From Podarcis cretensis (taxonomy: Eukaryota): a stretch of 64,000 nucleotides of DNA. Below the pieces are notes generated by a model, which saw only the letters and a program-made list of their open reading frames with translations, was not told the origin of the DNA and ran no database searches. Location: positions 15,872,001 through 15,936,000 of the forward strand of contig OX638166.1 of NCBI GenBank assembly GCA_951804945.1, given 5' to 3'. Positions 31,045 through 56,750 of the stretch are shown in pieces. How positions within the stretch are numbered: position 1 is the first letter of the stretch; each line of letters opens with the position of its first letter. The translations under genes were made by a program, and so were the position numbers.

Positions 31045-32709
31045 TACAGTTTGGACCATGGTGGAAAAGGAGTGGGAAGATTGCCTGAGCTCGAGACTTG
31101 GCCACAGCTTATCCCCATCAAAAGGAATTATGCTTTATCATGATATCCAAACTGGCCCATGCAGTCTATTGTCAAACTACAGCTTGGAGAAGTGGGAGCT
31201 TCAGAGGTTATCATCCTATTTTTGCTAATTGAGTTTGAGCTAAGCTCTTCCCAGGAAAAAAAAGCCTCTTAGTGAATTACTTATTCAGTTCCTCTGGGTG
31301 CAAGTGTGATGGTTGTTACTGCAGCTTATAATTGAAGCACAAGAGACCTTTGAGAAATATAACTTCAGCTCTTTTCCTTGTGTTAAATGTTCCCAATGAA
31401 AACCAAACCAAGTAGCTGAGAAATTCAGTGTGCCTTTTGCCATTTGTTTGGTGAAGTTGCCAAAGATGTTTAGGTACACAGCGCCATGGCAGGTACTCTG
31501 CCTTTCGATGGAACAAGATTTGAGGGTAAGAAAATAATTTGCTTTGTGCTGTCTGAAATCACAATATTTTCTGAATTATGAGAAACATTTGTTGGCCTGT
31601 GTTGTTGTTGTTGTTGTTGTTTAAGAATGTGATGTATGATAACCAGTTTTCTTTCTGGTTTTCATTTTGCAATAATTATATGTTTATATAATATCACTGA
31701 TTATGCACATACAAGCAAATACATCTACTGACAAAACTGTGATCCCTATCTGAAATGTAAATGAGGAACAGTGTTATTAAAGGGGAAGAAGTTTTAATCT
31801 AATACTTTAATTTTATAATTCATTGTGCCAAGGATTTAAACAAAATGTTTCAGATTCCAGAACAGCATTGCACCCCCCACCAGCTCTGATTATTGCAAGT
31901 TTTTATTATGTTCTGTTGGTTTCAACAGAGAAATCTCTATCATTTTGACAAGTAGGATCTGTGTCAAGTTTTCATGTGTTAAGGGGATGCTGTGGAGGGT
32001 GGGCTGTTGTGCACAGAGACTCATGGAACATTGCACCCCTTGTTACTGAAAGCCAGGCCATCCTGTGTCTGTGGAAATAACATATTTTGTCATTGCCCAT
32101 GCTAGCATCCCCAAGTGCTTTACGCACACCCATAGGAATAACCAGCAAGTATTCACTTACGTAAGAGAAAGTTAAGGGGTGCCCTTGTGGACAATGAGAC
32201 TTATACTAGCTACCTGACCCTGGTGGCATTGGCCATTTGAGAATCAATAGCCTGCTGATTTGTGTGTAGCATCACCTTTTCATCTGCATTGACCCATGCA
32301 AGGTTCTGTTTCTTGGTCAGTTTGCAGTGTGACAGAATGTCAAGAACTATCATTGGTTGGCTGGTTGTTCCCTGCAGCTCAAGAGAGGTAAAAGGTGAGA
32401 TAAGCCAATGGCTGTTCATGCCTAGGAGTTTTGTGCAGGAGTGTACTGGTGATATTCCAGAGCATCCTTCCCCCAACTTGGTGCCTCCTGTTGTTTTGTA
32501 CAATTCACATCATCCCCAGCTGAGGCCGATGATGGCGGTACAATATTCCAAATCATCTTAAGGGCACCAGGTTGGGTAAGGCTTCACGGTGCCAGTTGCC
32601 AAGAGTTGGGTTGCCTGGGTTGTGGCAATTTCTGCAATTCCGAATGGAAGACTAGGGAATAGCAAGATCAGCATTGTACTTCTGAGAGAGCACTCCAGTG
32701 CTCATTGGA

Positions 32710-41777: not shown

Positions 41778-41929
41778 TATAAACCAGCCCCCAGCCTTCT
41801 GACATCACAGTCCCATAAGGAGGCAGAGAAGGAATTTGATTTCAATGAGCTAAAAAAAGGAGTCTTTGTAGGGGGTGGGGGGGTGGGAGAGGCACGCGTC
41901 TGCTTCAAAGATCCTGGGCATCAAATGAG
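41778..41929 (+). promoter_or_regulatory. AKAP2: Candidate internal AKAP2 promoter and non-coding first exon
   Basis: TATAAA at 41778-41783; Inr-like CAGT with A at 41809 (31 nt from the TATA start); ATF/CRE-like TGACATCA at 41800 and its reverse complement near 41622; strong donor GAG|GTAAGC at 41929/41930; TE-poor context. Confidence 0.55.
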
Positions 41930-43973
41930 GTAAGCTCCTGTTTCTTATTCTTTCCTTACTCTAGACAGCACAGGTTGTCCTGTCGTTAAGTGTTTTGTTC
42001 CGAAGAGTGCGTTTTATCATAAAGGCTGCAGGCAGCGTGGTTGAGGTTTAAAAGAATATGTGGCTCCCGTCTGCTGCAAACTATGCGGTAACGGTTGCAA
42101 ATGTTATGTTTCCTTTTCCTGCCTTAATAACTTAAGACACTTCTTGCTTGTCCCAACCAAAATTAATCAGTTAGATGAAGTTAGCACGAGTGGAGGAAAT
42201 GCTCTGCGCCTTTGCAACATGCAGTTTTCAGAAGTAGCCTGTAATATTTTAGGAGAAATAGGTCTCTAAATGATTGCAGACCCATTTCTGAGCTACTCGG
42301 AACAGCCTCCTTCTCCTGCTGCTGCAGTGCAGTGTAATGTACTTGGGGTTATCAGCGGGATCATGCAGCTTTCTCCTCCTTTTCAAAGGGCTATTTTAAA
42401 ACACAGCTTATACTTTTCTGCTACATGAGACCTTCTTGAGTACAGCAAATGGATACTGGAGAAACACAATAGGGGTAGCTAGCCTCTTGGGTTTGTACAG
42501 CACTTGTGAGGTCTGTTTCTCCTTTGACTTCTCTCTCGCTCTCTCCCTTTCTAATAATGCACCCATTGATATAGAGAGTGTGTTTAATTGTGTCTGAAAA
42601 AGCAAGCATAGAATGGTGCCTTTATATCACCATTCTCCAAGCTGCCTCACACTGCTTCGCTATTTCTTTTCGTTCACTTAATTTAGTAGTTAAAACACTA
42701 TTTAGGATTGTTATCCCAAGTTCTTCTTGTTACCACTTAACTTGTTCACCGATGATTTATCAGTTTGTCTGGGAAAATTATTTATCTCTCCTCTTTCCTC
42801 CCTCCCCCCCAGTTGTTTTTAGTTCTCCCCCTTCTCACTTTCTTTAAATAGCATCTGTCTTGAGTTGTTTCTTGTTGTATGATATTCTGGAAACTAGACT
42901 TACCGTCTACAGTTTTAAAAAGTGCGCATCTGTCTTAACACAATTGCCTTCGAAAGATTAGACCATTTATTTTTATATAACCATTTTGGTGTGATAATAT
43001 ATACTTCAAACAATTTTTCATTTTGCTGGTTTGGTGTGGGGGCATCTTGCTTTCAACTTACACTAACCCCTCCAAATTTTCATATATTACCCTACCAGAC
43101 TTTTAGGAGATTCTTGTTCTGAATAGTTACTTTGCAACATGCTTGTTGAGTTTGTGCCTTCCTTTCATCATCCACCTTTTCTGCCTAATGCAACATTGAT
43201 GAAAATGTGTTAATCAAATAAGTACCTTAACATAAGCCAGATGTGCTGCTTCTGACTTCATTGATGGCTTTTCATCAGGAAATGGAGAATCGGTGGCTGC
43301 CGGGAGGGAGCAGCAGGAGGAGTGGGTTGGAGAAGGGAATGTCTTATTCATTAGGATTCCTTTGGTTCCTTTTGTCCATACAAGGAGGAGAAGAGCAGTT
43401 TCTAAATCAGGCTTCCAGTGAAATGAGCTGGCCTGGGGAATGGTTGGGCGAATGGTTAAGAAAACATAGGGAAATTACTGAGCTTATACTGCTAGTTAGT
43501 CGTCACATGGTAGGTCATATGTTATAGCCCAGATACACCAATGGCATGTAAAGAATTTGACGGCATCCTGTTATACTTCCTTCTTGAAAGCAGTGTTGGA
43601 AGTCATTCTTTATTAACCTTTCCACACCCCAAAAGAAATAGCTGGTTTTGTACTTCAGATATGAGTTTTTCACTAACAGCCACTACCCTTCAAAAATGAC
43701 AAAATGCTTTGAAAACCACAGTGAGATCCCAAAGGACTTCGTGACACAGGATGTGGTCTGCTTTTCTCTCTTTTTTTTACCCTTTCAAGAAAGAAATGAT
43801 AGCACACGCAAGCTCTTTAGCATGCCCAAAGTAGCTGTTTATGCCAATTTGCTGAGTTCAGCGTCCAGCAGATCTACTTTGCTTGTTTTGCCAAGACTCT
43901 GGGCTCATCTGCACTTCCATTTGTCCCATGATTTCTTCAGTTTGTCTTGTGATTTTATAGGCGTGGGTCTGAA

Positions 43974-44618: not shown

Positions 44619-45299
44619 GGCCTGATAGGTTTTCCTTTTGTCTCACCAACTTTCCCTTGGGGAAACCCACTGTATACCTCTGAAGAAAACCTGATTGGCA
44701 TTTGTTACAATTCAACAGTAAATAACAGGTTTTCCCAGGGAAAGTGACAGGGCAAACGAAAAACCTCTTGGACCATTTTTCCCATGCTGGGACTCCCAAT
44801 ACCAGAAGTGACTGAAGACAAAGGGGCTTGGCAAGAGATGCTGAATGGAGACAAGTCATGAGAGGGGAAGAGTTTAGCTTCCTTCACCCATGTACCCATT
44901 TTGCTTTGAAGGCTGGATGTCCCTCATCCTATTACTTCCTGGCTGGGTCCATTCTGGAAAGCACAACAGTTTGGCCTTAAGGTCCCAAATGTCCAAGCAG
45001 CGGATTTTTTCTTCCATCCTGATCACTGGAAGTTCCTTCCAAAAATGTGGCCCTATTGAAACAGTTGGATGCATTTGCAAGACCCAGGTTACACAGGTTC
45101 TTGCATGACAAGAGGTTGCAAGTAATTCAAAGTTGTTGGCTGTTTTGCTTTTTGATCCCTGTACTACCTCTGTTCTGATTTCCATACAAGCTCTGCTTCT
45201 CAGACACTAAACATTTTGTGGAATAGGAATTCCAAGAAGTGGGGGGTGGGGGGAATGTGCTAATAGTTTTCAAAAGCCACAAATAGTTGCAGTTTTACT

Positions 45300-45457
45300 C
45301 AGTGGCGTAGCGTGGGGGGTGCAGGGGGGGCCGGCCGCACCGGGCGCAACATCTGGGGGTTAGGGTTAGGGATAGGGTTAGGGGGCGCAAATCCAGGGTT
45401 AGGGGGCGCAAATTACTTGCCTTGCCCCGGGTGCTGACAACCCACGCTACGCCACTG
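45300..45457. mobile_element. Young hAT-type MITE containing TTAGGG repeats
   Basis: Perfect 17-bp TIR CAGTGGCGTAGCGTGGG; exact 8-bp TSD GTTTTACT (45292-45299, 45458-45465). Confidence 0.92.
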
Positions 45458-46042
45458 GTTTTACTACAGTACATTGCATAAATGTCACTGCTACATAGCA
45501 GCTGGAATCAAAAGGCAAAACAAGGCATGTGAGTGTGGAATATGCTACACTTACTAAAAATAACTCCTACGGAGTTTTAATTCTGATTACTTCAAGATGG
45601 CATCAGTAGAACTTTTGAGCACTGAAGCTATATGCTAATGTAGTGAAACTAGTCTGTTTGCATGATCTGTTCAGAGGGGAAGGTGGATTTCCATTTCAGG
45701 AATGGGCTCCCGTAAGGACAAAAAAATAAGTCTGATTAAATTTTTGTTTGTTTTACTATCACTGGCATCACTTTTTAACTGATGGAAAGGAAGTGTGGAC
45801 TCTCAAAAGGGACTTTCGCCCCCATTGACCTAATTAGTAATTACAAGCATGTTCAAGCATGGCTTTCTGATACATTATTCAAGCCTCATCCTGTGTATTC
45901 TCAAAAGTTTATATTATCCCTCCTTCTTATTCCTATGGCAAGAGCACCCATGCTCTAGAAAGGCTGCTATCTTTCTAGATACTCATGGTCCAACTCTAGA
46001 GTCTATGTGACAGTGTGAAAGAGAAACCCTAACTGTTGAATG

Positions 46043-54314: not shown

Positions 54315-56750
<2,436 letters not shown>

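What the first reader, a model, noticed from the sequence alone, without database searches (positions are those of the whole stretch)
45292..45465. Young MITE carrying telomeric TTAGGG repeats (possible mobile interstitial telomere seed / G-quadruplex)
Seen: a 158-bp element with perfect 17-bp TIRs, an exact 8-bp TSD and undecayed CpGs. Its core is GGG-TTAGGG-TTAGGG-ATAGGG-TTAGGG (45357-45383) plus another TTAGGG at 45399, with AGGGTTAGGGGGCGCAAAT repeated at 21-bp spacing. Known: 8-bp TSDs mark hAT elements; (TTAGGG)n forms G-quadruplexes and is bound by shelterin TRF1/TRF2; squamates often have interstitial telomeric sequences. Inference: a recent hAT MITE family may be scattering telomere-protein or G4 sites through the genome, here ~3.4 kb downstream of the putative AKAP2 promoter.
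Basis: partly seen in the sequence, partly recalled or inferred. Interest (0 to 1): 0.7.

Follow-up and report, generated by a model that had tools for sequence, protein, structure and literature searches.

The report
Lizard mini-transposon with telomere-like repeats
This is a recently inserted copy of a small jumping DNA element with thousands of copies in this lizard genome; its telomere-like letters likely arose by copying slips inside the element, almost never grow beyond three perfect repeats, and are not shown to bind telomere proteins.

Summary
Observation confirmed: a 158-bp element with perfect 17-bp TIRs and an 8-bp TSD, in a PALM2-AKAP2 intron of a lacertid lizard. It is a non-autonomous hAT MITE: at least 4,735 exact 5' ends, 12 identical copies, and an empty site in 5 of 5 related organisms laid. 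I found a parent, a broken 6.8-kb hAT with the same ends and only one TTAGGG in the arm the MITE keeps. The tract is secondary: a 6-bp and then a 12-bp tandem duplication plus one G>A change. 3,336 copies carry (TTAGGG)2, about 70% of such sites in the assembly; 403 carry the four-hexamer G4-like tract; only 37 reach three perfect repeats, and the longest of 30 read has four. So the family does scatter telomere-like motifs, but it is not seeding telomere arrays, and shelterin binding is untested. Two side findings are more striking. The parent transposase is 92-98% identical to newt and toad proteins, which suggests horizontal transfer. A sister subfamily carries a captured piece of the GNAL first exon in at least 718 copies.

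The parts
45292..45299 (+). left 8-bp target-site duplication
   Evidence: relatives hold a single copy at the empty site
45300..45457 (+). 158-bp non-autonomous hAT MITE, internal-deletion derivative of the 6.8-kb element at G000:C8:14751650-14758483
45300..45316 (+). left 17-bp terminal inverted repeat
45300..45359 (+). 5' arm inherited from the parent hAT (57 of 60 aligned columns identical)
45355..45385 (+). telomere-like tract at the deletion junction; canonical four-tract G4 pattern, G4Hunter 1.88; longest perfect TTAGGG run 2
45361..45384 (+). 12-bp tandem duplication (45361-45372 and 45373-45384) with one G>A change at 45372, which makes the ATAGGG hexamer
   Evidence: exact tandem in copy L048; L048 and L043 differ by this one base; L048 without one unit matches 146-bp copies at 70 of 70 nt
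45374..45413 (+). two copies of the 19-nt subterminal motif (45374-45392, 45395-45413); relic of a duplicated 22-bp unit that has lost one base in this subfamily
45386..45457 (+). 3' arm inherited from the parent hAT (68 of 73 aligned columns identical), with the parent's single TTAGGG at 45399
45441..45457 (-). right 17-bp terminal inverted repeat
45458..45465 (+). right 8-bp target-site duplication
54315..56750 (+). context: large coding exon of PALM2-AKAP2; the MITE lies in the intron before it, G-rich strand in the sense direction
31466..31525 (+). context: an alternative first coding exon of AKAP2 (20 of 20 residues match a gecko isoform start)

Best explanation
The element is a young non-autonomous hAT MITE, present in thousands of copies, whose telomere-like tract likely arose by microhomology-guided slippage of one subterminal TTAGGG and is likely a passenger rather than a telomere seed. 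Shown: ends and both arms match a 6.8-kb broken hAT; copies have their own 8-bp TSDs; this insertion is absent from five related organisms; natural copies display each intermediate (1, 2, 4 hexamers; a G form and an A form). Inferred: an internal deletion joined the G-run of the 5' arm to the G-run before the 3' TTAGGG; a 6-bp duplication gave (TTAGGG)2, a 12-bp duplication gave four hexamers, a G>A change and a 1-bp loss gave this subfamily; the parent family's transposase then spread it in trans by cut-and-paste. Inferred and untested: the duplicated subterminal motif, which shares GGGCGCAA with the 5' arm, adds transposase-binding sites, which would explain why such variants spread. The tract is predicted to fold into a telomere-type G-quadruplex when single-stranded; no host function is shown.
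For: Family size 4,735 exact 5' 25-mers, reversed control 0. TSDs 28 of 30 exact. Parent L129 1651-8484 has both TIRs, an identical TSD and PF05699 plus a sub-cut-off PF14291 match; arms align 57/60 and 68/73; TTAGGG occurs at only two places in its 6,834 bp, one inside the retained arm. Copy L048 holds an exact 12-bp tandem; removing one unit matches L041 and L036 at 70 of 70 nt; L048 to L043 is one G>A. The same spot duplicates at unit sizes 6, 7, 12, 21, 22 and 33 among 30 copies, most of them out of telomerase register. Of 100 listed four-hexamer copies 71 read ATAGGG, 28 GTAGGG, 1 TTAGGG (counted by eye). No long arrays. Empty site in runs X1, X2, X4, X23, X15; filled in X19, X21, X22. 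hAT transposases bind subterminal repeats (PMC10368747, abstract and outline).
Against: No intact transposase of this family was found: one near-complete but broken copy and no other match above 47% identity among 150 of 188 candidates scored, so the mobilising enzyme is not in hand; a separate 4.4-kb hAT family with open 730-aa frames but different ends exists. The order of the slippage steps is parsimony, not a tree. The first 6-bp step cannot be told from one round of telomerase addition. The (TTAGGG)2 form is very abundant (3,336), which an advantage from host telomere proteins would also produce. Samples of 30 came from the first part of contig C1, not at random.
Confidence: 0.8

Rival explanations
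1. One reading: the MITE scatters working shelterin or G4 sites that affect chromatin or nearby genes, here AKAP2.
For: At least 403 copies carry a four-tract telomere-like motif; the family makes up about 70% of (TTAGGG)2 run ends (61 of 74 listed rows between C1:0.8 and 24 Mb match MITE positions, by eye). Human TRF2 binds non-telomeric G4s, and 465 of 1,956 peaks held an interstitial TTAGGG (PMC6879327, passages). This insertion separates organism F from five relatives.
Against: The copy has one YTAGGGTTR half-site (consensus recalled) and two TAGGGTT cores; about 49,000 half-sites are expected by chance in the genome. Earlier ChIP studies found under 200 TRF2 sites (as cited in PMC6879327). 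Copies show CpG decay like methylated DNA. Intronic position; promoter not established.
Confidence: 0.12
2. Telomerase added TTAGGG repeats at the break during repair of an excised parent, as proposed for short interstitial telomeric sequences, and copies act as seeds for further growth.
For: The tract sits exactly at the deletion junction, after a G-run. Short ITSs are attributed to telomerase at double-strand breaks, and reptiles keep somatic telomerase (PMC4529230, passages).
Against: The third hexamer is GTAGGG or ATAGGG in 99 of 100 listed copies and is explained by an exact 12-bp duplication; 7-, 22- and 33-bp duplications occur at the same motif; only 37 copies have three or more perfect repeats, longest 4 in 30 read.
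Confidence: 0.05
3. A one-off local expansion in a single insertion.
For: None beyond the tract being absent from most family members (27 of 30).
Against: 12 identical full copies on 9 contigs and 403 copies of the core.
Confidence: 0.01

Closest known systems
Non-autonomous hAT families of Anolis carolinensis (Novick et al., PMC3014272; passages and Table 1 rows seen)
   Same: Short internally deleted hAT derivatives with 8-bp TSDs and CAG-starting TIRs that far outnumber autonomous copies; some take up foreign DNA; several hATs arrived by horizontal transfer.
   Different: None of the TIRs in the table rows I saw matches this one; no telomere-like tract appears in the passages seen; no NTCTAGAN-type target preference here.
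hAT Tip group (Tip100, BuT2) and BuT2 MITEs (PMC3942097; passages)
   Same: 8-bp TSD, MITEs formed by internal deletion; the parent's relatives carry PF14291, PF27073 and PF05699 and are labelled TTF-type or ZMYM1-like.
   Different: Placement in the Tip group rests on my recall of that domain layout; no tree with named Tip members was built.
Short interstitial telomeric sequences (s-ITS) (PMC4529230; passages)
   Same: A few TTAGGG-like units inside a chromosome arm, below FISH detection, next to a transposable element.
   Different: Here the units lie inside the element and were copied with it; origin fits tandem slippage; perfect run is 2.
Multicopy Pack-TIRs such as Pack-hAT-N8_XT (Tan et al., PMC8277862; passages), for the sister subfamily
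   Same: A hAT MITE holding a few hundred bp of a host gene's 5' end, with microhomology at the breakpoints and distinct TSDs.
   Different: That survey of 100 genomes found 4 multicopy cases, with 3 and 5 copies in the examples seen; the GNAL-carrying subfamily has at least 718.

Membership tests
hAT non-autonomous element (MITE) | 8-bp target-site duplication, different at each copy | tested here: met
   28 of 30 exact, 2 with one mismatch; single copy at the empty site
hAT non-autonomous element (MITE) | short TIRs of 10-25 bp | tested here: met
   17 bp perfect; range from PMC3942097
hAT non-autonomous element (MITE) | ends shared with an element that encodes a hAT transposase | tested here: met
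   L129: same TIRs, own TSD, PF05699 E 9.9e-13; pieces map along an 841-aa relative
hAT non-autonomous element (MITE) | short, non-coding, high copy number, homogeneous subfamilies | tested here: met
   158 bp; 4,735 exact 5' ends; mean 2.5 differences in 15 length-158 copies
hAT non-autonomous element (MITE) | mobilised in trans by an intact transposase present today | tested here: inconclusive
   only a broken parent found; 150 of 188 candidates scored
hAT Tip group | transposase falls in the Tip clade of a hAT tree | not tested
   domain layout only; named Tip sequences were not in hand
already named Dfam/Repbase family | consensus match in a repeat library | not testable with these tools
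   no repeat library offered; paper searches listed nothing describing it
short interstitial telomeric sequence | run of exact TTAGGG units inserted at a chromosomal break | tested here: not met
   perfect run 2; tract is internal to the element and explained by tandem duplication
short interstitial telomeric sequence | bound by TRF1/TRF2 in vivo (a subset only) | not testable with these tools
   one half-site by a recalled consensus
telomere-type G-quadruplex motif | four G3 tracts with short loops | tested here: met
   45355-45385; G4Hunter 1.88
telomere-type G-quadruplex motif | folds in vitro or in vivo | not testable with these tools
   Strand folding gives the TIR stem only and does not model G4
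Pack-TIR (sister subfamily) | internal host sequence whose source lies outside any TIR element | tested here: met
   L188 2131-2487 sits in an open 198-codon first exon of GNAL
Pack-TIR (sister subfamily) | microhomology at breakpoints and distinct TSDs | tested here: met
   5-bp and 2-bp overlaps read; 27 of 30 loci had a TIR pair, 22 of these an exact TSD

The most novel reading that the evidence does not exclude
A hAT transposon shared by horizontal transfer between amphibians and lacertid lizards spawned a MITE family that built telomere-like repeats from scratch and became the main source of short interstitial TTAGGG sites in the genome; its 400-plus G4-forming copies recruit TRF2 or G4-binding proteins and give species-specific regulatory differences, while a sister subfamily spread a GNAL CpG-island exon fragment to over 700 places.
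Probability: 0.12. Interest if true: 0.75.

Novelty: new member of a known kind. Interest (0 to 1): 0.45.

Why it matters
The telomere-like tract is most likely a by-product, but it comes as a natural series (1, 2, 3, 4 hexamers in otherwise near-identical young insertions, hundreds to thousands of each of the common forms, some present in one species and absent in sister species). That makes a standing question directly testable in a reptile: how short an interstitial TTAGGG run or G4 can be and still recruit shelterin. It also shows a route to short interstitial telomere-like motifs that needs neither telomerase nor chromosome fusion. The side findings add weight: a likely amphibian-lizard horizontal transfer, and a gene-capturing subfamily about a hundred times more numerous than the multicopy vertebrate examples seen in the one survey I read.

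Tried and rejected
Single-copy or local expansion: rejected. Seeding of long arrays: rejected. The young 4.4-kb hAT family with open 730-aa frames (L121-L125) as parent: rejected, different ends and only 22-35% protein identity. PDB search with the parent's middle frame gave nothing useful. Pfam missed the AKAP2 exon; it was named. Paper searches listed nothing on a TTAGGG-bearing lizard hAT MITE or on this transfer (listings only); one search was swamped by 'hatchling'; these do not prove absence from print, and Dfam/Repbase could not be searched. The two 2011 TRF ChIP papers are not held, so I saw them only as cited in PMC6879327. No supplements were opened; Supplementary Data 1 of PMC8277862 may hold larger Pack-TIR copy numbers than the passages I saw. 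Earlier findings of the scan: none by sequence or words; two by place did not bear on the reading. Summed contig depths were not used as copy numbers.

Full report
Observation. The sequence is as described: a 158-bp element at 45300-45457 with perfect 17-bp TIRs and an exact 8-bp TSD. TTAGGG stands at 45360, 45366, 45378 and 45399, ATAGGG at 45372, and a 19-nt repeat recurs at spacing 21. A canonical G4 pattern covers 45355-45385. Folded as single-stranded DNA the element forms the TIR stem (z -3.6); that tool does not model quadruplexes.

Host and place. The long frame at 54315-56750 is the large exon of PALM2-AKAP2, 97% identical to a lacertid cluster, 84% to the next squamate and about 70% to turtles and birds. 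The host is therefore a lacertid lizard. The element is intronic, between an alternative first exon at 31466-31525 and the large exon. The promoter near 41.9 kb is plausible by eye but untested.

Family. The genome holds 12 identical and 28 further 99% copies among 40 scored of 644 candidates; 28 of 30 have exact, mutually different 8-bp TSDs. The first 25 bases occur exactly 4,735 times, reversed control 0, a lower bound. Thirty copies taken by this 5' end alone (the first 30 on C1) range from 119 to 554 bp; all 30 hold at least one TTAGGG, 11 hold (TTAGGG)2, 3 hold the four-hexamer tract. Genome-wide exact counts: junction with (TTAGGG)2, 3,336; four-hexamer core, 403; three or more perfect repeats, 37. 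In 30 of those 37, all inside the MITE, the run is 3 in 26 and 4 in 4. All run ends of (TTAGGG)2 after a G number 4,533, reversed control 43, so the family supplies about 70%; the two patterns are not strict subsets. By eye, 61 of 74 listed rows between C1:0.8 and 24 Mb match MITE positions, while the 26 rows in the first 0.35 Mb of C1 do not.

Youth. Fifteen length-158 sister copies (of 30 read; the other 15 differ in length and were left out) differ from the window copy by 2.5 bases on average, 43% at CpG; the exact-match selection biases this low. Of 23 runs listed I laid 8. Three samples of organism F have contigs running from both flanks into the element and no empty-site joint; organisms A, B, C, G and E each have a contig that skips exactly 166 bases with an 8-base overlap. 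Flanks of A differ from the window at 6 of 795 bases, no more than one F sample does (7 of 824), so the insertion is very recent. Contigs drop rare alleles, so fixation in F is not shown. All six organisms carry the family.

Parent. A search for the hAT dimerisation domain gave two loci with this family's TIR about 550 bp after the domain. L129 is a 6,834-bp element with both TIRs and its own TSD; L130 is a 3,757-bp deletion form. L129 holds PF05699 and a sub-cut-off PF14291 match; its transposase is broken by a stop, frame breaks and insertions. No other close copy of the middle region was found (150 of 188 candidates scored). The MITE's arms align to the parent's ends at 57 of 60 and 68 of 73 columns. 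The parent has TTAGGG at two places only, one in the retained arm.

Origin of the tract. Natural copies show the steps. L046 joins the 5' G-run directly to the single 3' TTAGGG. L033, L041 and L054 have a 6-bp tandem. L048 has an exact 12-bp tandem on top; dropping one unit matches L041 and L036 at 70 of 70 bases (1 and 2 mismatches to L054 and L038). L048 and L043 differ by one G>A, which turns GTAGGG into ATAGGG; the window's subfamily then lacks one C. Tandems containing TAGGG occur at unit sizes 6, 7, 12, 21, 22 and 33 among the 30 copies. Of 100 listed four-hexamer copies 71 have A, 28 G and 1 T at that place (by eye). This fits slippage on G-run and AAAT microhomology and not telomerase, which would write TTAGGG (established knowledge). 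The first 6-bp step alone cannot be assigned. The order of steps is inferred by parsimony.

How it works. Inferred: an internal deletion of the parent made short elements that kept both ends; a family transposase moved them in trans, giving 8-bp TSDs. The duplicated motif shares GGGCGCAA with the 5' arm. Hermes binds subterminal repeats through its N-terminal zinc finger (PMC10368747, abstract and outline), so extra copies of the motif may favour mobilisation; untested here. The tract should form a telomere-type G4 when single-stranded (G4Hunter 1.88), and it lies on the sense strand of AKAP2; genome-wide orientation is balanced (187 against 216). For shelterin, the copy has one half-site by a recalled consensus, against about 49,000 expected by chance. 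Human data cut both ways: under 200 TRF2 sites in early studies, thousands with G4 enrichment in a later one (PMC6879327, passages).

Side finding 1, likely horizontal transfer. A 260-aa piece of the parent is 96-97% identical to Pleurodeles waltl proteins and 93% (over 77% of the query) to Pelobates cultripes; the best named squamate hit is 53% (proteins of 456-2000 aa, 930 candidates). Against the 841-aa newt protein the end pieces give 194 of 210 and 207 of 212 identical; pieces across frame breaks or insertions score 71-96%. The clusters hold many Pleurodeles and Pelobates members and two from Pelodytes ibericus. A host gene is only about 70% identical already between this lizard and birds. 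DNA identity, dS, direction and the amphibian ends were not seen. Contamination is unlikely, as the element sits with a TSD in a 94-Mb contig and has thousands of derivatives. Searches listed no paper on it.

Side finding 2, gene capture. Four of the 30 copies (L034, L037, L045, L047) carry non-parental DNA that matches C7:43132131-43132487, a CpG island: 303 bp before the start codon and 18 codons of a 198-codon first exon ending in the G-alpha-s-class motif. An exon downstream matches G(olf) better than G(s), and the C6 paralogue the reverse, so the gene is GNAL. The junction pattern occurs 718 times. Of 30 loci read, 27 had a TIR pair; full-length inserts are 85-90% identical to the source with gaps; breakpoints show 5-bp and 2-bp overlaps. 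Tan et al. found four multicopy Pack-TIRs in 100 genomes (PMC8277862, passages; supplements not opened). Capture of filler DNA by hATs is also described in Anolis (PMC3014272, passages).

Verdict. An ordinary kind of element, a hAT MITE, with a real and quantified telomere-like by-product. The seed reading fails; the shelterin or G4 reading is open and now easy to test. I found no description in print in searches (listings only), and could not search repeat libraries. Papers seen: PMC4529230, PMC8277862, PMC6879327, PMC3014272, PMC3942097 as passages; PMC10368747 as abstract and outline; all others as listings. Interest 0.45, raised by the two side findings.

Noticed in passing
L129 1651-8484 (G000:C8:14751650-14758483, minus strand): Broken parent hAT whose transposase is 92-98% identical in its end pieces to multicopy proteins of Pleurodeles waltl, with close relatives in Pelobates cultripes and Pelodytes ibericus; likely horizontal transfer between amphibians and lacertids.
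   Followed up: partly
L188 2131-2487 (G000:C7:43132131-43132487); copies L037, L045, L047, L200-L229: A sister subfamily carries about 357 bp of the GNAL long first exon region (CpG island, start codon, 18 codons, and a splice-donor-like word) in at least 718 copies: a very high-copy Pack-TIR.
   Followed up: partly
L121 2866-7241, L122 2729-7102, L123, L124, L125: A second young hAT family, 4.4 kb, copies 97-99% alike, two with open 730-aa transposase frames and imperfect ends unlike this MITE's; possibly still active.
   Followed up: partly
L130 1621-5377 (G000:C8 near 1.10 Mb): A 3.76-kb deletion form of the parent in which a 29-bp internal unit has expanded into a minisatellite of about 2.3 kb.
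   Followed up: no
L044 (G000:C1:4.43 Mb): A 355-bp copy in which the 22-bp subterminal unit has grown to about ten copies: the element seeds minisatellites more readily than telomere arrays.
   Followed up: partly
L131 1920-2375 (G000:C5:36.16 Mb): An older relative of the parent's 3' end, 71-82% identical in DNA, suggesting an earlier wave of the same lineage.
   Followed up: no
G000:C1:27375-28356, 140452-140968, 216141-216210: Clusters of GTTAGGGTTAGGGG at 13-bp spacing near the start of C1: degenerate subtelomeric arrays, not matched to the MITE lists.
   Followed up: no
window 41778-41935: TATA-like word and a short stretch ending in a GT donor in phase with the large AKAP2 exon; possibly another first exon.
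   Followed up: partly
L187 5463-5706 (G000:C7 near 43.125 Mb): A family member sits in the GNAL first intron about 6.4 kb from the captured source, but it does not carry the captured piece.
   Followed up: no
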